Shown here one piece after another: positions 20,730 through 43,570 of a stretch of 64,000 nt of DNA. Position 1 is the stretch's first letter. Every line of letters begins with the position of its first letter. The notes beneath the pieces are model-generated. The model made no database searches. It saw only the letters and a list, made by a program, of their open reading frames with translations, and was not told the DNA's origin. The position numbers and the translations under genes are program-made. Origin of the DNA: Escherichia phage JLBYU40; the sequence record NC_105514.1, one strand, 5' to 3'.

Positions 20730-21143
20730 TTAAACTAGTTCGACATGACCGCCATCATAGGTACCACGTTTTATTTCGTCGTGATAATCTCCTGAAGCAT
20801 TCCAATCAGCACCAAAACGAAGTTTAATGCCTAGTTCTTTACCAGCTTGTTCAAAAGCCTTTTTAACTGCCCAAAATGCTTCTAAGTCATTCCAATCAAT
20901 TTTGCCATTAATGTATGGAGCAAAATCAAGGGCATCCCCAGTAATATGCTTGCTTTTACTAGGATCTTTTAAAAATGAAGTACCATTAGCAATATTCTGG
21001 GCACTTTGTGCTACTGTACGAATACCCTGTACGATCGTGAAATCATATGGAGATAATTCTAAAGCTCTACGAGCTACTTTTTGTAGCTCTGGCTTAACGG
21101 TAGCTAATTGTTTTTCGCTATTTTTACCAAATTTAAAACTCAT
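20730..21143 (-). CDS. lys: endolysin, likely L-alanyl-D-glutamate peptidase (T5 Lys-like)
   Basis: 137 aa; H..D...H-type zinc peptidase residues; immediately downstream of putative holin. Confidence 0.65.
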   Translation of the reverse strand: MSFKFGKNSEKQLATVKPELQKVARRALELSPYDFTIVQGIRTVAQSAQNIANGTSFLKDPSKSKHITGDALDFAPYINGKIDWNDLEAFWAVKKAFEQAGKELGIKLRFGADWNASGDYHDEIKRGTYDGGHVELV

Positions 21144-21796
21144 ATTGATCTACCTAAAGATCTCTGTTGTGGAGAACAGAGCTTTGTTAAATACTCGTTA
21201 AATTTCTCAGAATCGGCCGCATCTACAGGATTATCTTTCCAAGCAATACCAATATATCCAGCATAGATATTGTTTAGATTGAAATACGGACAAGTGTATA
21301 TGTAATTAAAAGTAACGTTCTTAAACGCAGGTATATTTAACCCCATGTATTTATTTACTTTTACACTTAAATCCGATGCGTAGTTAAAGCCCTCTAAGTG
21401 ACGTCTATATAGCTCAGACGTTTTATTTACCGCTTTATCGGCCAAGTCAGCCCTATCTAATTGCGCATTGCTTTCCCATGCAATAATGTTAGAATAATCA
21501 TTAATGGCATCGGGTTTATACTTGACGACAAAAACAGCATCCGCACCCGTTTGAGAAAAGAGTACCATGCTCTTTTCTCTAGCTACATTAGGAAAGTTAT
21601 CTATCCTTTGAGTTTGAACATCCTGTAGAACCGCAGACGTGGAGAAAGTCTTTAAGAATGACATCACCTCGCTAGTATTACTAACAAATAAGAAAATAAT
21701 GACAGCAACTAAGATAGTTAGCAGACGTTTAAGAAGCGATGCTGGATCTTTCGCTTCTTGGAGCAGTACCGTTAATAATTGTAAGAACTTTTCCAA
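21140..21796 (-). CDS. putative holin
   Basis: 218 aa with one N-terminal TM helix; 4-nt overlap with endolysin start. Confidence 0.45.
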   Translation of the reverse strand: MEKFLQLLTVLLQEAKDPASLLKRLLTILVAVIIFLFVSNTSEVMSFLKTFSTSAVLQDVQTQRIDNFPNVAREKSMVLFSQTGADAVFVVKYKPDAINDYSNIIAWESNAQLDRADLADKAVNKTSELYRRHLEGFNYASDLSVKVNKYMGLNIPAFKNVTFNYIYTCPYFNLNNIYAGYIGIAWKDNPVDAADSEKFNEYLTKLCSPQQRSLGRSI

Positions 21797-36342: not shown

Positions 36343-36862
36343 TTAGAAATTTAGCTTCATAGCAAGAAAATTTTTCAAGTTTTCGGTAGACATCTCATCT
36401 ACATCTACAGGAGAAACAAAGCCGTTTAATTTTCTAGCAAATTTTTCACCATCGGGATCATTGTCTCCAACAGCTACCAATTTAAAAGGTAGTAATTTCA
36501 GTTGCTTTAATAACGCTTTTCCTGGAGAAGAACCCAACATTGCTAGGGCTGGATAACCAGCGTTATGTAACGCAACTGCCTTAAATACAGATTCAGCAAT
36601 CAATACTACTTTTTCATCTCCATTGAGAGTTTCTAGTCCCCATACACACTGGGTAGTAGAATAAGTAAAGTATTTAGCTTCAAAGGGGCACTTACCATGA
36701 CCTTTTGGAGCAGAAGGATTATAAGTTTGATAGCCCCTCAACATCCCAGAGAAGTCATACAACGGGACTGTTAGCCATCCTTCTGGACTTAACCAGCAAT
36801 GATATTTATCTGTATCAAATCCCCTAGATAAGAGGTGCTGTGTTAGCTCATCAACATTCATA
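36343..36862 (-). CDS. Toprim-domain protein
   Basis: 173 aa from the Met at 36862 beside an early promoter; IAES...VAVGDNDPDGEKFA resembles the Toprim E + DxD signature. Confidence 0.45.
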
Positions 36863-37036
36863 TTTGGTTCCTCTCTCAAATTTATAGATATATTATACAG
36901 AGAATTTAGCATTCAAGCAATCAAATTTTTTAACTTTTTAGAGGAAAATCATAGGGCGCTTAAGGGTAACAGATAAGTGGTGAGGACCAAAATTTGTGAC
37001 CCCACTAAAAATCCGGGGGCAATTTTTAAAGACCCC

Positions 37037-37065
37037 TTGACATTTTCGCTGGGGTAGTGTAAAGT
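37037..37065 (+). promoter_or_regulatory. sigma70-type promoter of the plus-strand island
   Basis: perfect -35 TTGACA (37037-37042), 17-bp spacer, -10 TAAAGT preceded by TG; unlike the phage early promoter family. Confidence 0.5.
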
Positions 37066-37127
37066 ATATGTTATGGATGAGTGATCAAAGAGACACACAT
37101 TTTCTATATACTAGGAGGTGTCAAAAA

Positions 37128-38114
37128 ATGACAGAAGAAGTAGCTAAGAGTCCTGAGACCGTCGCTAGCGTTGCAGCAGAACTGCACCGTCACGAGGAAT
37201 CAGATAAGAAAAAGTGGGAGAAGGTCAGAGCCTACGAAGAAAAACATCGTGAACACGATGATGAAGAAGATGACGATGATGAACATTGTCATAAATATGG
37301 AAAACATAAAATGCAAGAACCAGTAAACGTATTCACTAGTGGCTTCCCTGGCCTACTGGGTGGTTACCCAGCAAACGCAGGTGCTTTCGGTGGTGAAGGT
37401 ATGGGACTATTCGGAGCTATCCTAATCGGTGCTCTATTAACAGGTGGATTCGGTGGTTTCGGTGGATTCGGTGGACGTGGTGTAGTTGGTGAAGGTACCG
37501 CAGTTGATGCAGTACTTCAGAACCAAGATACCGCTAGTATTCTAGCAGCTATTAACACTACTCGTACAGAAGCTAATCAGGGTACTGGGGCTGTGTTAAG
37601 CGCAGTTAACAATGGTTTTAGCCAGACATCCCAAAACCAGAGCCGTGATACTCAGTCTGTACTAACTACGATTTATGGTACAGGTGCTAATCTGTCTAAT
37701 CAGATCTGCCAGGAAACTCGCAACGTTATTCAGGGTCAGTTCGATCTTTCTCGCCAGATTGATCAATCTTTCGCAGCTAACCAGATAGCTCGTGCACAAG
37801 ATAAATTTGATTCTGCACAGATCGCTTTCCAGCAGACTTTACAAACTAATAACCAGTTTGCCGCTGTTCAGGCTCAGATGTGTGCTAACCAGAACTCTCT
37901 GGAACGTCAGATCGCTGAATGTTGCTGTGAACTTCAGACTGCGATCGCTGGTGTAACTACTGCGCGTATCCAGGATGAGTTAGATGCATGTCGCCTACGT
38001 GAGGCAATCGCTGCGGGTAATGGTGCTAACGATCAGGTAATTAATCAAATCGCTGTAAGTCTTGGTGCAATCACTCAGACTCTGGCTGGTCTGCAGGCTA
38101 AACTGCCGGCTTAA
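37128..38114 (+). CDS. glycine-zipper membrane protein with acidic/His-rich N-terminus and Q/N-rich C-terminus
   Basis: 328 aa from ATG 37128 (RBS TAGGAGGTG); GLFGAILIGALLTGGFGGFGGFGG segment; CCC motif; GC visibly above flanks. Confidence 0.55.
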   Translation: MTEEVAKSPETVASVAAELHRHEESDKKKWEKVRAYEEKHREHDDEEDDDDEHCHKYGKHKMQEPVNVFTSGFPGLLGGYPANAGAFGGEGMGLFGAILIGALLTGGFGGFGGFGGRGVVGEGTAVDAVLQNQDTASILAAINTTRTEANQGTGAVLSAVNNGFSQTSQNQSRDTQSVLTTIYGTGANLSNQICQETRNVIQGQFDLSRQIDQSFAANQIARAQDKFDSAQIAFQQTLQTNNQFAAVQAQMCANQNSLERQIAECCCELQTAIAGVTTARIQDELDACRLREAIAAGNGANDQVINQIAVSLGAITQTLAGLQAKLPA

Positions 38115-38135
38115 TATTAAGGGGAGGAGCCCATT

Positions 38136-38552
38136 ATGAGTAAATATGGTTTTGTAAATAACGGACTTAATCAAAGTATGGGCTCCCAGCAGCCCATTCC
38201 GGGTCTGGATAACCCCTACTTACAACAATTGCAACAGCGTTTAGCAGAAGCGCAACAGATGCAGCAACAACTCCAGCAAAACCCTGGAAGTGTGAGTCCT
38301 ATGCAAATGATGCAGCAAATGAGCGGGCAGTCGCAAATGCCTCAACAAATGCAGCAACAGGTGCCTCAGCAGCAAGTTCAGCAACAAACCCAACAACCGC
38401 AGGTTTCTGCGGAAGGACAGGCAGTACTAGCCCTTTTCGAAGACTTCGCAAAGACAGAGGATGGGAAACAGCTTGTATCACTTATGGGTAAGTTTAATAG
38501 CTTCTGCCAAAGCCAGGTTGCAAAAGCTCAAAATAGTGGTAATAACTCCTAA
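38136..38552 (+). CDS. glutamine-rich low-complexity protein
   Basis: 138 aa; RBS GGGGAGGAG; long Q/M/P-rich stretch. Confidence 0.5.
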   Translation: MSKYGFVNNGLNQSMGSQQPIPGLDNPYLQQLQQRLAEAQQMQQQLQQNPGSVSPMQMMQQMSGQSQMPQQMQQQVPQQQVQQQTQQPQVSAEGQAVLALFEDFAKTEDGKQLVSLMGKFNSFCQSQVAKAQNSGNNS

Positions 38553-38561
38553 GGAGGAATT

Positions 38562-38756
38562 ATGTGTTGCAGAAAATCTGTTTCGTGCTGCCCAATGCCT
38601 GTAGCACGTTGTTGCTCTCCAGCAATGTTTACGCAAATACCGGCGTTCAATCCGTTTGCCTTTAAGCCTACTCTTATCCTGCCCCCTAGAGTAGATTTTC
38701 AGTCAAGATTGGCCTCCCGTATGGGTAGTTGCTGTAACAAGAGTATATGGTTCTAA
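38562..38756 (+). CDS. small Cys-rich protein
   Basis: 64 aa; RBS AAGGAGG; four CC doublets. Confidence 0.45.
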   Translation: MCCRKSVSCCPMPVARCCSPAMFTQIPAFNPFAFKPTLILPPRVDFQSRLASRMGSCCNKSIWF

Positions 38757-38769
38757 GGAACCAAACAAT

Positions 38770-38810
38770 AAAGCCCCTAGTCGAAAGACTTAGGGGCTTT
38801 TCTTTTATCT
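38770..38810 (+). terminator. Rho-independent terminator of the plus-strand island
   Basis: ~11-bp GC-rich stem with GAAA loop followed by TTTTCTTTTATCTT. Confidence 0.6.
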
Positions 38811-38851
38811 TAAATACAGAAAAGCCCTGCGCTCTCTAGGAAACGCAGGGC
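38811..38851 (-). terminator. Rho-independent terminator for the SPFH gene
   Basis: 9-bp stem AGCCCTGCG/CGCAGGGCT with a T-run on the minus strand. Confidence 0.55.
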
Positions 38852-38876
38852 TTATTTCAGATGTTACATGCGGGTA

Positions 38877-39824
38877 TTATTTATTACGCATATCCATAAT
38901 CATTTGGCCATCATAGCCAGTGCCAACCACAGTCTGCGGTACACCACCTTGGTATTTCTGAGCACGAATCATTTCAACTTCCAGTTGCTTCCAGCGAATC
39001 ATCTCAGGAGTAATGGTACGTTGCAATGCGGCGTTAGCTTCAGCTTCTTTCTTAGCTGCATATAGTTTAGCATCTGCGTCACGTTCATTGGCAATAGCTT
39101 GGTTGTTGCGAGCTTCACGGTCTGCTTCTGCTTGTTTAACTTTTTGCTGTGCTTCCTGTTCAACGCGAGCCAGTTCAGCTTTCGCAGCATTAACTTGCTC
39201 TTCACGAACTTTGGTATTCTGTACCTGTTCCATGATTACCGGTGGCAAAGTAATATCCTGAAGGAATACCTGCTTAACTGTATAACCATATGGGCGTGCA
39301 TACTCTTCAACTTCCTGTTGAATTGCAGTTTGCAATTGAGCCTGAATTTTAGCATCAAACAAATCTTGTGCTTTAGGTACAGACTTACCAAACTCACGAA
39401 TAGTAGACAGTAATTTTTCAGTTACATACTTGTCTAGTGCCTGATCCTGAGTACCTGCGTTAATACGGTTAATTGGTGCCTTAGAACCATCAAACTGCAA
39501 CATAACAGTCAGGTCAACAGTGGATTTAAACTTATCCTGGCTAGGAACCTGAAGTTTATCTAATTTTACAGCAATATCTTTTGTACTAAAAGTGTCGAAA
39601 GATGCAAATGGGTTTACAAGATGGAAACCTGGTAATACTGGGTTAGGATCTACTTTACCCAGAAATGTTTGGGTTTTAACCGTACCATCAGAAACAATAG
39701 TATATGAATTAAAAGCTAGGATTAAACCTGCTAAACCAACTACAGCACCAATACCCCAACGTTTAATAGTACGAATTACTTTCTGCTCAGAAGTCAGTTC
39801 TTTCATATTTTTAGTATTAAACAT
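38877..39824 (-). CDS. SPFH/band-7 (prohibitin/HflC-like) membrane protein
   Basis: 315 aa; N-terminal TM helix, SPFH-like core, long charged coiled-coil C-terminus. Confidence 0.6.
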   Translation of the reverse strand: MFNTKNMKELTSEQKVIRTIKRWGIGAVVGLAGLILAFNSYTIVSDGTVKTQTFLGKVDPNPVLPGFHLVNPFASFDTFSTKDIAVKLDKLQVPSQDKFKSTVDLTVMLQFDGSKAPINRINAGTQDQALDKYVTEKLLSTIREFGKSVPKAQDLFDAKIQAQLQTAIQQEVEEYARPYGYTVKQVFLQDITLPPVIMEQVQNTKVREEQVNAAKAELARVEQEAQQKVKQAEADREARNNQAIANERDADAKLYAAKKEAEANAALQRTITPEMIRWKQLEVEMIRAQKYQGGVPQTVVGTGYDGQMIMDMRNK

Positions 39825-40435: not shown

Positions 40436-40507
40436 TACCGACCGTAGGATTCGAACCTACATCTTCCACCAGTTACGGCTTGATAATACCAATTATACTA
40501 GGACGGC
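40436..40507 (-). tRNA. tRNA, anticodon unresolved
   Basis: perfect T-arm, acceptor with one U-U mismatch, no encoded CCA; no convincing anticodon stem by eye. Confidence 0.3.
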
Positions 40508-42213: not shown

Positions 42214-42655
42214 AATAGCCTCGTTTCATCAATTTAAAAATATATTATACACATAATTTAGTAAATTAGCAAATACATTTTTAAATTGTGAAACTAGTAA
42301 ACCGATAAACAGCCTAGAGGCGCCACAGGCCATATCTTATGAGCCATGTACCTTTGATCTAGGGTTTGAATCATCAATGAATACTTTGCATCTTTTAGCT
42401 TTAGAAGTTTAGAAGTTTGAGTTCTTTAAACTTTTCAGCTTTCATACTTAAATGTTGATCTTTGAAGTTGTGTCGGTAATATCAACGACGCTTTGTTTTT
42501 ACGTGTCAGATTAAATGTCTGATGTAATAAACATAATCTCCAATAGATTATACTTTATAGTATGGTCAGCGGTCTTATTTAACCTCGTATTTCAACCGCT
42601 GCTGCGAGGTAAGATGCTTGGGCTTTCGTCTACCGATTTACTAGCTTTTAAATTA

Positions 42656-43294
42656 TTACTCTACTTCAATGAAGGTAGAGGCGTTAGACTCGGACAGAAC
42701 AAAGTCAACATTTGTTGCAAAGTCCTGATATTCCTCGTCATGCTGTTTAATCAGCTTTTCCAGTTCCAGCGGATCAATCAAGAATGGGGTATTCTTGAGT
42801 TCCAGCAGGTTGAGCTGCATTTTAACTTCATCTTCGGAAGTTTTCTTATCGCGGGTAGCCATGCTATCCTGCAAACGCTCATATTTAGCATCAAACTGTG
42901 CTTTCTGCGTATTAAACTTAACCGTAGCGGCATGGAACTGCTTACGCATGTTAGCCAGCAGTTGGGCTTTAAGTTCCATAGAACGCTTAGCTTCAATTGC
43001 TTCCGCAACGGTCATCTTACGAGAGCCAATCTCAACGATTGTTTCAGCATTGCTTTTAATCAGAGCAGCTTTGATACGATCACGCTGGGACATCATATCC
43101 AGGAGAGATTGGAAATCTGCCTTAATACGAGCAGACAGATCGTCTACTTCGATTGCAGCGCCAACTACAACCTTATTTTTATCCTTACCTTCACCAACAG
43201 CGATCAGAAGCTGCTGTTCAGTAGCTTTACGGATTTTAGCTTCCAGAGATTTGATAGTTGCCAGAGCGCGGGTTTTAGAAATACGAGTAGTCAT
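42656..43294 (-). CDS. hypothetical coiled-coil protein
   Basis: 212 aa; plus-strand ORFs here are antisense shadows. Confidence 0.5.
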   Translation of the reverse strand: MTTRISKTRALATIKSLEAKIRKATEQQLLIAVGEGKDKNKVVVGAAIEVDDLSARIKADFQSLLDMMSQRDRIKAALIKSNAETIVEIGSRKMTVAEAIEAKRSMELKAQLLANMRKQFHAATVKFNTQKAQFDAKYERLQDSMATRDKKTSEDEVKMQLNLLELKNTPFLIDPLELEKLIKQHDEEYQDFATNVDFVLSESNASTFIEVE

Positions 43295-43570
43295 TATTTG
43301 CTTCCTTATATGAAGTTTGAGATTTGAATTTGTTTAAAGTTGGTCTATTACAGACCAATTGCCAGCAGAGTGCGCAGAACAGTATCGTTACTGTTATCAA
43401 TTTTAGGATTAGCACGATTTAGCAGATCAAAGATTTTCTGGACACCTGATTGACGTTCAGCCATACGACGGATACCCAGATTACGAGTAGCTTTCTTACC
43501 ATTTTTACGAACATTTTTAGATACTGGCGTATTTGTTTTCCTTTTATTGTTTTCTCAAATTTATGAATAT

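What the first reader, a model, noticed from the sequence alone, without database searches (positions are those of the whole stretch)
37020..38860. Self-contained three-gene island (glycine-zipper membrane protein, Q-rich protein, Cys-rich peptide) inside the tRNA/early region
Seen: the only plus-strand unit in a ~27-kb minus-strand block. It has a perfect TTGACA -35, unlike every phage early promoter here, its own strong terminator, and visibly higher GC than its flanks. Gene 1 has an acidic/His-rich N-terminus, a GxxxG-type glycine-zipper helix and a Q/N-rich C-terminus; gene 2 is a poly-Q/M/P protein; gene 3 is a 64-aa peptide with four CC doublets. Inference: this is moron-like architecture, and the composition suggests a membrane-acting module (exclusion, toxin/immunity or envelope remodelling). 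I recognise none of the three as a described family.
Basis: partly seen in the sequence, partly recalled or inferred. Interest (0 to 1): 0.8.

Follow-up and report, generated by a model that had tools for sequence, protein, structure and literature searches.

The report
Dispensable three-gene T5 accessory operon
This is the long-annotated but uncharacterised T5.077–T5.079 operon of T5-like phages. It is a self-contained, dispensable unit encoding a membrane-anchored coiled-coil protein and two small cysteine-bearing partners, and its large protein belongs to a widespread, unnamed phage family marked by an "ECCCE" motif.

Summary
Window 37037–38809 is an autonomous plus-strand unit: a TTGACA-17-TAAAGT promoter, three tightly spaced genes with strong ribosome-binding sites, and a −20 kcal/mol intrinsic terminator. 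It sits inside a minus-strand early/tRNA block.

It is not new as an object. In phage T5 it is promoter P12, T5.077, T5.078, T5.079 and an annotated bidirectional terminator, all three genes "hypothetical".

The "foreign island" reading fails on composition. Gene 1 has GC3 0.33, like its neighbours, and codon usage given amino-acid content is normal for all three genes. The unit is also ancestral: unit-less Epseptimaviruses are deletion derivatives that keep the last ~32 nt of gene 3.

The "moron-like accessory module" reading holds:
- It has its own promoter and terminator.
- It is removed by the viable T5 st0 deletion.
- All three genes score "Not Fit" in a genome-wide T5 knock-down screen.
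- It lies beside the anti-retron gene rad.
- The same trio occurs in an unrelated 62-kb Pseudomonas-type phage.

Points not found in the databases and papers searched:
- Gene 3, mostly unannotated, appears to be a real gene.
- Gene 1 belongs to a large Pfam-less family that also occurs in crAss-like and gut siphophages.
- The unusual promoter is conserved across distant T5-like lineages.

Function remains inferred. The best guess is a membrane-tethered, cysteine-linked complex acting in phage–host or phage–phage conflict.

The parts
37020..37065 (+). Promoter, the homolog of T5 promoter P12: A/T block TTTTTAAAG, -35 TTGACA (37037-37042), 17-nt spacer, -10 TAAAGT (37060-37065).
   Evidence: Consensus scan. 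The T5 record annotates 'promoter P12' at the equivalent place. The pattern TTTTAAAG-N5-TTGACA-17-TA[AG]AGT is conserved in T5, two Epseptimaviruses and two distant T5-like contigs. It lacks the TTGCTA / TATAAT / ATATT..ATAAATTTGAGAG signature of T5 early promoters.
37066..37127 (+). 5' untranslated leader, invariant among T5-like phages. It contains the AGGAGG ribosome-binding site.
   Evidence: Nucleotide diversity is 0.000-0.005 over 37060-37120 in 25 unique sequences, while the flanks show 0.05-0.15. The predicted fold is no better than shuffled sequence (z -0.9).
37128..38114 (+). Gene 1 (T5.077 homolog, 328 aa). It has a charged acidic/His N-domain, one Gly-zipper hydrophobic segment (aa ~89-116) and a long Q/N/A-rich helix. 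Invariant residues are C252 and the triplet C265-C267 within 'IAECCCELQ'.
   Evidence: ORF and translation. Alignment of 17 homologs gives the invariant residues. Hydropathy and heptad analysis. The AF2 model gives one long helix 125-325 at low confidence. It matches phrog_8119. The profile search finds a superfamily that shares the CCC motif.
38136..38552 (+). Gene 2 (T5.078 homolog, 138 aa). It has a conserved N-terminal helix (YLQQLQQRL..AQ), a Q/M/P-rich linker of variable length, and a conserved C-terminal helical hairpin (EGQAVLALFE.FAKTEDGKQLVS..GKFNS.CQS) with one invariant Cys. No export signal is present.
   Evidence: Alignment A4. AF2 places helices at 27-48, 92-105 and 108-134, with pLDDT 80-89 in the C-terminal hairpin. 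It matches phrog_7894. pN/pS is 0.24.
38562..38756 (+). Gene 3 (T5.079 homolog, 64 aa). A cationic Pro/Phe/Cys-rich peptide that starts MCC and carries four CC doublets. It has a strong AAGGAGG ribosome-binding site and is left unannotated in most T5-like genomes.
   Evidence: tblastn finds it in 220 phage records at 86-98% aa identity, mostly with no annotated feature. An ORF of 60-69 codons starting MCC, with CC doublets, directly follows gene 2 in three very distant loci, L005, L006 and L007. pN/pS is 0.43 in frame against 0.92 and 0.71 off frame.
38770..38809 (+). Intrinsic terminator of the unit, annotated in T5 as an 'efficient bidirectional rho-independent terminator'.
   Evidence: Fold energy is -20.2 kcal/mol with z -4.7, followed by a U tract. 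The reverse strand folds at -19.9 kcal/mol. T5 annotation.
38822..38853 (-). Terminator hairpin of the convergent SPFH gene. It marks the right boundary and is not part of the operon. It carries the GCGC nick-site consensus.
   Evidence: Terminator scan. Fold energy is -22.9 kcal/mol. T5 annotates a major nick at the equivalent place.
36985..38724 (.). Window equivalent of the 1,753-bp segment that is missing in unit-less Epseptimaviruses such as SH9 and phagemcphageface.
   Evidence: BLAST and local alignment of SH9 against IrmaTschudi show L011 911-2663 deleted, while the last ~32 nt of gene 3 and both terminators are retained.

Best explanation
Identity (shown). The region is the T5.077-T5.078-T5.079 operon. 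It is an old, autonomous and dispensable accessory transcription unit of T5-like phages, lying in their deletable tRNA-rich / anti-defence region.

Expression (shown in part). A sigma-70 promoter that is not of the T5 early type drives three genes with strong ribosome-binding sites. Its sequence is TTGACA-17-TAAAGT and it is conserved across distant lineages. A strong intrinsic terminator ends the unit.

Products (shown).
1. A protein with one glycine-zipper hydrophobic anchor and a ~200-residue Q/N/A-rich coiled-coil-like helix. The helix carries a near-invariant CCC triplet, with C265 on the predicted core face.
2. A protein without an export signal, with two conserved helical ends joined by a variable Q-rich linker, and one invariant Cys.
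3. A cationic 64-aa peptide that starts MCC and carries CC doublets.

Mechanism (inferred). The three products assemble through their conserved cysteines, by interchain disulfides or by a shared metal-thiolate cluster. The result would be an oligomeric scaffold tethered to the inner membrane of the infected cell. This scaffold would serve phage-host or phage-phage conflict rather than virion production or lysis. Candidate roles are exclusion of competitors and countering an envelope-linked or other defence.
For: Identity with the T5 P12/T5.077-079/terminator unit comes.

Evidence that it is dispensable:
- The st0 deletion joins T5p066 to T5p079, so the unit is missing in a viable lab strain.
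- T5.077, T5.078 and T5.079 are all 'Not Fit' in the CRISPRi-ART screen (PMC11879866 supplements).
- About half of the records carrying the SPFH neighbour lack the unit. The loss is by a clean 1.75-kb deletion.

Conflict context:
- The adjacent gene is Rad/T5.076, a retron anti-defence gene.
- The ~8-kb deletable region was named an 'anti-defense island', and its loss lowers plating on retrons and, for T5n, on AVAST2.
- In Epseptimaviruses the same slot holds a NadR-like gene and PnuC.

Module coherence:
- Gene 1, gene 2 and an MCC peptide are kept together, with the same promoter pattern, in two distant T5-like contigs. The trio also occurs in an unrelated 62-kb phage.
- All three genes are under purifying selection, with pN/pS of 0.21, 0.24 and 0.43.

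Cysteine theme:
- Invariant residues are C252 and C265-267 in gene 1, C124 in gene 2, and MCC plus CC doublets in gene 3.
- 188 of 226 family members held carry CCC. In 115 of the 120 that also have a hydrophobic segment, that segment lies N-terminal to the CCC.

Membrane anchor and helix.

In other phages the family sits in small cassettes at varying genome positions, next to an integrase, after tail-fibre genes, or inside a head module. This is the behaviour of accessory cassettes.
Against: - No experiment or homolog gives a function, so the conflict role rests on neighbourhood and dispensability only.
- In the retron study, rescue mapped to fragments F6, F7 and F8 only. ORF76/77 are not mentioned there, and which of the nine fragments carried the unit was not established here.
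- Topology is undecided, so the choice between disulfides and metal binding is open (and the family N-tails).
- Assembly of the three proteins into one complex is inferred from co-conservation alone.
- In crAss-like phages and some siphophages the family lies beside lysis or structural genes. This would fit other roles.
- The AF2 models are of low confidence.
Confidence: 0.4

Rival explanations
1. Recently acquired foreign island, a classical moron. On this view the unit was inserted into the T5 early region from another genome and still carries a foreign composition.
For: The unit has opposite orientation, its own host-like promoter and its own terminator. GC is higher than in the flanks. Presence is variable. 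The trio also occurs in an unrelated phage, and there the C-terminal half of gene 1 is 59% identical. That is more than the 37-43% seen in distant T5-like contigs.
Against: GC3 and codon usage given amino-acid content match the rest of the genome. The unit, with the same promoter, occurs in T5-like lineages whose gene 1 is only 37-43% identical. Absence is a secondary deletion that leaves gene 3 remnants.
Confidence: 0.1
2. Metal-handling module. The His/Asp/Glu-rich N-domain, the CCC triplet and the CC-doublet peptide would bind Ni, Zn or Cu as thiolate/imidazole clusters, for storage, sequestration or detoxification in the infected cell. From memory, Helicobacter Hpn and Hpn-like proteins show a similar composition (His-rich, EEGCC, Gln-rich).
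For: Some variants carry HHYHHHHHEHYEED..EHEHH tracts. Each of the three proteins has invariant cysteines, and genes 2 and 3 lack export signals, so their thiols would sit in the reducing cytoplasm. TM-less family members without signal peptides keep the ECCCE core. C265 falls on the predicted coiled-coil core.
Against: His-richness is not conserved in distant members. The Met-rich character of gene 2 is a variable linker that is absent in distant homologs. No match to any metal-binding family was found. The resemblance to Hpn is recalled, not tested.
Confidence: 0.15
3. Auxiliary lysis or membrane-fusion device, like a spanin or disruptin. Gene 1 would act as an i-spanin-like TM plus coiled coil with Cys links. 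Gene 3 would act as a Pro-rich or cationic outer-membrane-active partner.
For: The architecture is a TM segment followed by a long helix with cysteines. Gene 3 is Pro-rich and cationic. The family profile gives weak matches to class I fusion heptad repeats, E 0.15-1. crAss-like homologs lie near holin, endolysin and LysB-like genes.
Against: Gene 3 has no signal peptide or lipobox. The window's holin and endolysin lie ~16 kb away, at 20733-21664. T5-like phages are reported to carry Rz-like spanins near them (PMC11664485). Knock-down and deletion of the unit are tolerated. The fusion-protein matches are not significant.
Confidence: 0.1
4. Non-essential virion-associated protein: a Cys-knotted coiled-coil fibre, or an ejected membrane-inserting protein.
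For: Family members lie between portal/minor-capsid and scaffold genes and after tail-fibre-like genes. crAss homologs have been labelled 'outer capsid protein/viral fiber'. A CC or CCC motif could lock a trimer after release into an oxidising environment (inference).
Against: T5 st0 makes infectious virions without the unit, and knock-down has no fitness cost. In T5 the unit lies in the early/tRNA region, ~44 kb from the start of the late structural block at 82-110 kb. From memory, published T5 virion proteomes do not list these proteins.
Confidence: 0.1
5. Gene 3 is not a protein-coding gene. On this view the conserved segment is an RNA or DNA element, such as a 3' UTR structure or a processing or regulatory site.
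For: Synonymous divergence in gene 3 is a third of that in the flanking genes, 0.11 against 0.32-0.36. Nucleotide diversity reaches a minimum at 38590-38710. The S/P/R/C/F-rich composition with almost no acidic residues resembles off-frame translation. Most annotators skip the ORF.
Against: An ORF of 60-69 codons that starts ATG-TGY-TGY and abuts or overlaps the gene 2 stop is kept in four lineages. Those lineages share no close nucleotide similarity (not matched by megablast) and include a high-GC phage. The window copy has a strong AAGGAGG ribosome-binding site. In-frame pN/pS is lower than off-frame. No Rfam family matches. The two readings are not exclusive.
Confidence: 0.1

Closest known systems
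T5.077-T5.079 with promoter P12 and the bidirectional terminator in phage T5 (NC_005859); PHROGs 8119 and 7894
   Same: It is the same locus, with the same gene order and the same flanks: Rad/T5.076 upstream and SPFH T5.080 downstream. Amino-acid identity is 81% for gene 1, 96% for gene 2 and 98% for gene 3.
   Different: There is nothing functional to compare. All three genes are 'hypothetical', and T5.079 is a PHROG singleton.
Phage morons, autonomous promoter-gene-terminator units as defined in lambdoid phages (established concept)
   Same: The unit has its own sigma-70 promoter and intrinsic terminator, lies opposite to its surroundings, is dispensable, and is found in unrelated phage backbones.
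   Different: It occurs in a virulent phage and has three genes. Its composition is not atypical. It is ancestral to the group and lost by deletion, rather than gained by insertion.
tRNA-rich region / 'anti-defense island' of T5 and SP15 (Azam et al., bioRxiv 10.1101/2023.03.15.532788; Nat Commun 2024, PMC11555353)
   Same: The unit lies beside rad (ORF75). It is also inside the 8.5-kb T5 st0 deletion, which corresponds in size and position to the ~8-kb region lost in T5n and SP15m.
   Different: No anti-defence activity has been assigned to these genes. Only retrons were tested with the cloned fragments.
Two-component spanins (lambda Rz/Rz1)
   Same: Gene 1 has a hydrophobic membrane segment followed by a long helical region with conserved cysteines, though here ~90 residues precede the segment. 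It is followed by a small Pro-rich partner.
   Different: Gene 3 has no lipoprotein signal. The unit is not in the lysis cassette and is not essential, and a third Q-rich protein is present. No sequence similarity was found.
Class I viral fusion protein heptad-repeat regions (coronavirus S2 HR1, influenza HA2)
   Same: Both have a Gly-rich hydrophobic segment followed by a long Q/N/S/A-rich helix. 'GLFGAI' in gene 1 is identical to the start of the HA2 fusion peptide (that identity is from memory). Profile matches are weak, E 0.15-1.
   Different: The matches are not significant. The resemblance is one of composition and architecture only, and there is no second membrane anchor.

Membership tests
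Moron-type autonomous accessory unit | Own promoter and own terminator, separate from the surrounding operons | tested here: met
   TTGACA-17-TAAAGT promoter, annotated as P12 in T5. Hairpin of -20.2 kcal/mol plus a U tract.
Moron-type autonomous accessory unit | Dispensable for lytic growth | tested here: met
   The st0 deletion record lacks the unit. The CRISPRi-ART screen scores T5.077-079 as 'Not Fit'. About half of T5-like records lack it.
Moron-type autonomous accessory unit | Atypical nucleotide composition or codon usage indicating foreign origin | tested here: not met
   Gene 1 GC3 is 0.33, within the spread of the other genes. GC3 given amino acids gives z of 0.5, 1.2 and 1.3 against a background sd of 1.65.
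Moron-type autonomous accessory unit | Present through insertion between conserved neighbours | tested here: not met
   The polymorphism is a deletion. Gene 3's 3' end and the terminators remain in unit-less genomes.
Two-component spanin | i-spanin: N-terminal TM domain plus a periplasmic coiled coil | tested here: inconclusive
   One hydrophobic segment and a long helix are present. However, a ~90-aa charged domain precedes the hydrophobic segment, and topology is unknown.
Two-component spanin | o-spanin: small lipoprotein with a signal peptide and lipobox | tested here: not met
   Gene 3 starts MCCRKS. It has no hydrophobic signal (KD maximum 0.85) and no lipobox.
Two-component spanin | Located in, and required for, the lysis cassette | tested here: not met
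   The holin and endolysin lie at 20733-21664, about 16 kb away. The unit is dispensable.
Glycine-zipper membrane helix | Small-xxx-small ladder on a hydrophobic helix | tested here: met
   G89, G93, A97, G101, T105, G109 and G113 form the ladder. G91, G101, G110 and G112 are conserved or invariant.
'ECCCE' coiled-coil superfamily (PHROGs 8119, 9288, 16490; no Pfam entry) | Core motif [IL][AS][ED]CCC[EATQ], a FAA..LQ.C..N.L stretch upstream and an RL..L stretch downstream, and usually an N-terminal Gly-rich hydrophobic segment | tested here: met
   The profile search gives 108 representative clusters at E<1e-3. Alignment A2 shows the motif. 188 of 226 members carry CCC, and the hydrophobic segment is N-terminal in 115 of 120. 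Cross-matches among the three PHROGs.
Known anti-phage defence or anti-defence protein families | Sequence match to a described family | tested here: not met
   PADLOC gives 0 hits, and NCBIfam and Pfam give nothing significant.

The most novel reading that the evidence does not exclude
The 'ECCCE' proteins would define a new, widespread class of phage-encoded, membrane-tethered, cysteine-locked coiled-coil assemblies. They occur in T5-like phages, a Pseudomonas phage, crAss-like phages and gut siphophages. The T5 trio (anchor protein, Q-linker adaptor, MCC peptide) would be a dedicated conflict device. One example would be the unmapped determinant behind the reduced plating of the 8-kb deletion mutant T5n on AVAST2. 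Another would be an exclusion system against competing phages. It would work by a mechanism with no described counterpart.
Probability: 0.2. Interest if true: 0.75.

Novelty: already known. Interest (0 to 1): 0.42.

Why it matters
The operon has been in the T5 record for about twenty years, so finding it again is not a discovery. It remains one of the clearest "known unknowns" of a model phage. It has strong expression signals, is under purifying selection, is dispensable in the laboratory, and sits beside proven counter-defence genes.

This analysis adds three testable handles.
- A third gene that most annotations omit appears to be real.
- The large protein links T5 to an unnamed family present in crAss-like and other gut phages.
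- Conserved cysteines in all three proteins point to one assembly.

If the unit proves to be a conflict module, T5 genetics would give direct access to a protein family that is abundant in gut viromes and has no assigned function.

Tried and rejected
- **Family searches.** Pfam, NCBIfam, PADLOC and PDB sequence searches of the three proteins and of the family profile gave nothing significant. PHROGs returned only 'unknown function' families.
- **AF2 of gene 1.** With 17 sequences the model had pLDDT 47.7 and was essentially one long helix, so no fold search was justified.
- **AF2 of gene 2.** The model had pLDDT 62.5. Foldseek against BFVD and PDB found only its own ortholog.
- **hhalign of gene 2.** Comparison with the Q-rich and small helical neighbours of family members in gut siphophages showed no homology.
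- **Rfam on 36.3-40.9 kb.** Only tRNAs were found. Nothing matched in gene 3 or the leader.
- **IMG/VR scan with the gene 1 profile.** It returned only 19 close T5-like loci.
- **Full-text search for T5.077/078/079.** There were no hits in main texts. The names occur only in supplements of the CRISPRi-ART paper.
- **Temporal class of P12.** I tried to assign it by comparison with named T5 promoters. It is clearly not the early type, but it shares TTGACA with pre-early P-H22, late P-J5 and P-K28b, so the class stays open.
- **Spanin idea.** Rejected: gene 3 has no lipobox, and the lysis genes lie elsewhere.
- **Met-rich copper-binding idea for gene 2.** Rejected: the Met/Gln tract is a variable linker that distant homologs lack.
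- **MCC-type peptides beside crAss and gut-phage family members.** None were found.
Full report
**What is there**

The window is a T5-like phage (Tequintavirus). A 2-kb megablast query matches 236 phage records at 80-99% identity.

Between 37020 and 38860 the sequence holds the following elements.
- A sigma-70-type promoter: TTGACA at 37037, a 17-nt spacer, then TAAAGT ending at 37065.
- A 62-nt leader.
- Three plus-strand genes with strong ribosome-binding sites: 37128-38114 (328 aa), 38136-38552 (138 aa) and 38562-38756 (64 aa).
- A 13-bp hairpin of -20.2 kcal/mol followed by a U tract, at 38770-38809.
- A second hairpin at 38822-38853, which terminates the convergent SPFH gene.

From about 9 kb to 53 kb every other credible gene is on the minus strand, and 22 tRNA genes surround the unit. 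The one correction is that gene 1 starts at 37128, not at the upstream in-frame ATG at 37068.

**It is an annotated locus**

In the T5 reference genome the same place carries promoter P12, then T5.077, T5.078 and T5.079, all annotated as hypothetical proteins. These are followed by an [quoted passage not shown] and a major nick site. T5.076 lies upstream and the SPFH "lipoprotein" T5.080 lies downstream.

Gene 1 and gene 2 match PHROGs 8119 and 7894, both of unknown function. Gene 3 matches none. Pfam, NCBIfam, PADLOC and PDB sequence searches give nothing significant.

**Composition does not mark it as foreign**

GC is 0.45-0.49 inside the unit against 0.35-0.40 in the upstream flank; the adjacent 3' part of the SPFH gene is 0.44-0.45. 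The excess lies in codon positions 1 and 2. Gene 1 has GC1 0.61 and GC2 0.43, but GC3 is 0.33, close to most other genes in the window.

I computed the GC3 expected from each gene's amino-acid content using the window's own codon table. The three genes deviate by z = 0.5, 1.2 and 1.3, against a background standard deviation of 1.65. Their per-codon likelihoods fall within the background range. The high GC reflects Gly, Ala and Gln content.

**Distribution and history**

tblastn finds gene 1 in 221 phage records, gene 2 in 221 and gene 3 in 220. The neighbouring SPFH protein is present at >=80% identity in about 436 records. About half of T5-like records therefore lack the unit.

In Epseptimaviruses the unit, when present, sits between a NadR-like gene and the SPFH gene. 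In SH9 and phagemcphageface those two genes are adjacent.

Aligning SH9 with IrmaTschudi shows a clean 1,753-bp deletion. It removes the promoter, gene 1, gene 2 and the first 163 nt of gene 3. The last ~32 nt of gene 3 and both terminators remain in place. Absence is therefore secondary loss.

Two metagenomic T5-like contigs carry gene 1 at only 37-43% identity. They have the same plus-strand trio inside minus-strand blocks. They also have the same promoter pattern, TTTTAAAG-N5-TTGACA-17-TA[AG]AGT.

The trio also occurs in a 62-kb high-GC contig with a terminase and a Mu-like portal. This contig matches the unclassified Pseudomonas phage RSP. The module has therefore moved between unrelated phages at some time.

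**Dispensability and neighbourhood**

- In the T5 st0 deletion mutant the deletion junction joins T5p066 to T5p079. This removes about 8.5 kb, including T5.076-T5.080, from a viable laboratory strain.
- In the genome-wide CRISPRi-ART screen of T5, T5.077, T5.078 and T5.079 are each "Not Fit" and listed as "unknown function". T5.076 is listed as anti-defence (PMC11879866 supplements).
- Azam et al. describe ~8-kb deletions of this region in T5n and SP15m. Their preprint calls the region an "Anti-Defense Island".
  - They map retron evasion to tRNA-Tyr, to ORF71/72, and to ORF75 (rad). ORF75 is the 189-aa Toprim protein encoded at 36343-36912 in this window.
  - They also note reduced plating of T5n on AVAST2 without mapping a determinant.
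  - The genes of the present unit are not mentioned.

**The promoter**

The T5 early promoters in this window and in T5 share four features: an A-tract, TTGCTA, a perfect TATAAT, and an ATATT..ATAAATTTGAGAG downstream box. Klimuk et al. also report the ATATT discriminator (PMC7472727).

P12 lacks all of these. It shares a perfect TTGACA with pre-early P-H22, with late P-J5 and with P-K28b. The window's P12 homolog and P-K28b also share the 13-mer TTGACATTTTCGC.

The temporal class cannot be read from the sequence, and I found no published kinetic data for P12. The leader at 37060-37127 is invariant in 25 distinct sequences, but it does not fold better than shuffled controls.

**The proteins**

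*Gene 1.* It has four parts.
- A charged N-domain. Its His-rich tracts vary between lineages.
- One hydrophobic Gly-rich segment, KD 1.72 at aa 94-112. It carries a small-xxx-small ladder: G89/G93/A97/G101/T105/G109/G113.
- About 200 residues of Q/N/A-rich sequence with heptad character.
- Invariant C252 and the triplet C265-C267 in IAECCCELQ. C265 falls on the predicted core face.

AF2 models this region as one long helix at low confidence.

*Gene 2.* It has a conserved N-terminal helix and a conserved C-terminal helical hairpin (pLDDT 80-89) with one invariant Cys. A Q/M/P-rich linker joins them. The linker is long in Tequintaviruses and nearly absent in distant homologs, so the poly-Q tract is a spacer rather than the functional core.

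*Gene 3.* It is cationic (8 K+R, 1 D+E), with 8 Cys as four CC doublets and 8 Pro. It has no hydrophobic signal.

**Is gene 3 real?**

Most genome records leave it unannotated. Four points favour a coding gene.
- An ORF of 60-69 codons beginning ATG-TGY-TGY (MCC) directly follows gene 2 in the window, in L005, in L006 and in the Pseudomonas-type contig. These loci share no close nucleotide similarity: megablast with the window did not recover them.
- Each of those ORFs contains further CC doublets.
- The ribosome-binding site in the window is AAGGAGG.
- pN/pS is 0.43 in frame, against 0.92 and 0.71 in the other frames.

One feature is unexplained. Synonymous divergence in gene 3 is 0.11, against 0.32-0.36 in gene 1, gene 2 and the SPFH gene. 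The segment 38380-38710 is the least diverse part of the unit after the leader. This could reflect an overlapping RNA-level constraint or recombination history. Rfam finds nothing there.

**A wider family**

An exhaustive profile search with the gene 1 alignment found 108 representative clusters at E<1e-3. The members share three features.
- A core motif [IL][AS][ED]CCC[EATQ].
- Conserved flanking stretches, FAA..LQ.C..N.L upstream and RL..L downstream.
- Usually an N-terminal Gly-rich hydrophobic segment followed by an Arg.

Of the 226 members held, 188 carry the CCC triplet. Among the 120 that also have a hydrophobic segment, that segment is N-terminal to the CCC in 115. A minority lack the hydrophobic segment and have no signal peptide.

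The family spans PHROGs 8119, 9288 and 16490, all of unknown function, and has no Pfam model. Members occur in these contexts.
- Crass-like phages (Suoliviridae), beside a DUF7841 gene and near holin, endolysin or LysB-like genes. There they have been labelled "outer capsid protein/viral fiber" or "spike protein".
- 42-58-kb gut phage contigs, in a small conserved cassette. One cassette lies between the portal/minor-capsid genes and the scaffold gene, and others lie next to an integrase.
- A 69-kb contig, after tail-fibre-like genes.

The partners differ between lineages. Gene 2 shows no homology to the neighbours in those cassettes. MCC peptides are confined to the T5-like and RSP-type modules.

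**Interpretation**

Shown:
- The unit is autonomous, strongly signalled and under purifying selection.
- It is dispensable.
- It is ancestral in T5-like phages and repeatedly lost.
- It has been exchanged with at least one unrelated phage.
- It lies beside proven counter-defence genes.
- Only gene 1 has a membrane segment.
- All three proteins keep invariant cysteines.

Inferred:
- The three proteins form one assembly through their cysteines.
- This assembly is tethered to the inner membrane.
- It acts in phage-host or phage-phage conflict rather than in virion production or lysis.

Topology is open. The 90-residue charged N-domain of T5-like members argues for N-in/C-out, which would put the cysteines in the periplasm and favour disulfide knots. 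Three features of the wider family argue the other way, for a cytoplasmic C-domain and metal-thiolate chemistry. These are short acidic N-tails, an Arg after the hydrophobic segment, and TM-less members without export signals.

I rate the conflict-module reading at about 0.4. The metal-handling, auxiliary-lysis, virion-accessory and "gene 3 is an RNA element" readings each rate 0.1-0.15. The recent-foreign-island reading rates 0.1.

**Verdict**

As an object the unit is already known and annotated. Three points were not found in the databases and papers searched here: the evidence that the unannotated third gene is real, the link to a large unnamed phage family that includes crAss-like phages, and the deeply conserved non-early promoter.

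Interest is moderate. This is a well-defined, experimentally accessible unknown in a model phage, but no mechanism is established.

Noticed in passing
window 36343-36912 (-): A 189-aa Toprim-domain protein matching phrog_849 'DNA primase'. It is the homolog of SP15 ORF75 'Rad' / T5.076, reported to neutralise several retrons. It lies divergently upstream of the unit.
   Followed up: partly
window 38877-39824 (-): The SPFH/band-7 protein is 73-78% identical at the amino-acid level to SPFH genes of T4-like myophages (RB16 and Klebsiella, Enterobacter and Cronobacter phages). This suggests gene exchange between T5-like and T4-like phages.
   Followed up: no
window 38380-38710 and 37060-37127: These are the two least diverse stretches of the locus. 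The first spans the gene 2 C-terminal domain and the gene 3 core, where pS is 0.11 against ~0.33 in the neighbours. The second is a 5' leader that is invariant in 25 distinct sequences. No RNA family or stable fold explains either.
   Followed up: partly
window 38822-38853: The SPFH terminator hairpin contains TGCGCT, the consensus annotated for T5 single-strand interruptions. The T5 record places a major nick at the equivalent position.
   Followed up: no
window 40436-40507 (-): Rfam tRNA match of 35.5 bits (E 7e-5) that ARAGORN did not call. It lies in the region corresponding to T5 'RNAX' and may be a degenerate or tRNA-like RNA.
   Followed up: no
L039 4367-4441 (T5 promoter P-K28b) versus window 37037-37049: P-K28b and the window's P12 homolog share the 13-mer TTGACATTTTCGC and a non-consensus -10. 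They may belong to a minor T5 promoter class distinct from the early type.
   Followed up: partly
L003 6208-7942, L004 6216-7950, L008, L009, L011: In Epseptimaviruses the slot upstream of the unit holds a NadR-like nicotinamide-nucleotide adenylyltransferase and a PnuC-like transporter in place of Rad. This makes it a variable accessory-gene slot, possibly involved in NAD+ salvage.
   Followed up: no
window 42515-43327 (+): A 270-aa ORF with GC3 0.52, far above all other genes. It is probably an antisense shadow of the minus-strand T5.085-like gene rather than a real gene.
   Followed up: no
L016 6810-7217, L018 2218-2646: Next to the ECCCE-family genes in gut siphophage contigs lies a 135-142-aa beta-rich protein (phrog_20016) with a CxCC motif. 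Its C-terminal pattern recalls C1q/BclA-type knob domains. That resemblance is from memory and was not tested.
   Followed up: no
L013 3126-3752, L017 8014-8406: DUF7841 proteins co-occur with ECCCE-family genes in crAss-like genomes and in a 175-kb contig.
   Followed up: no
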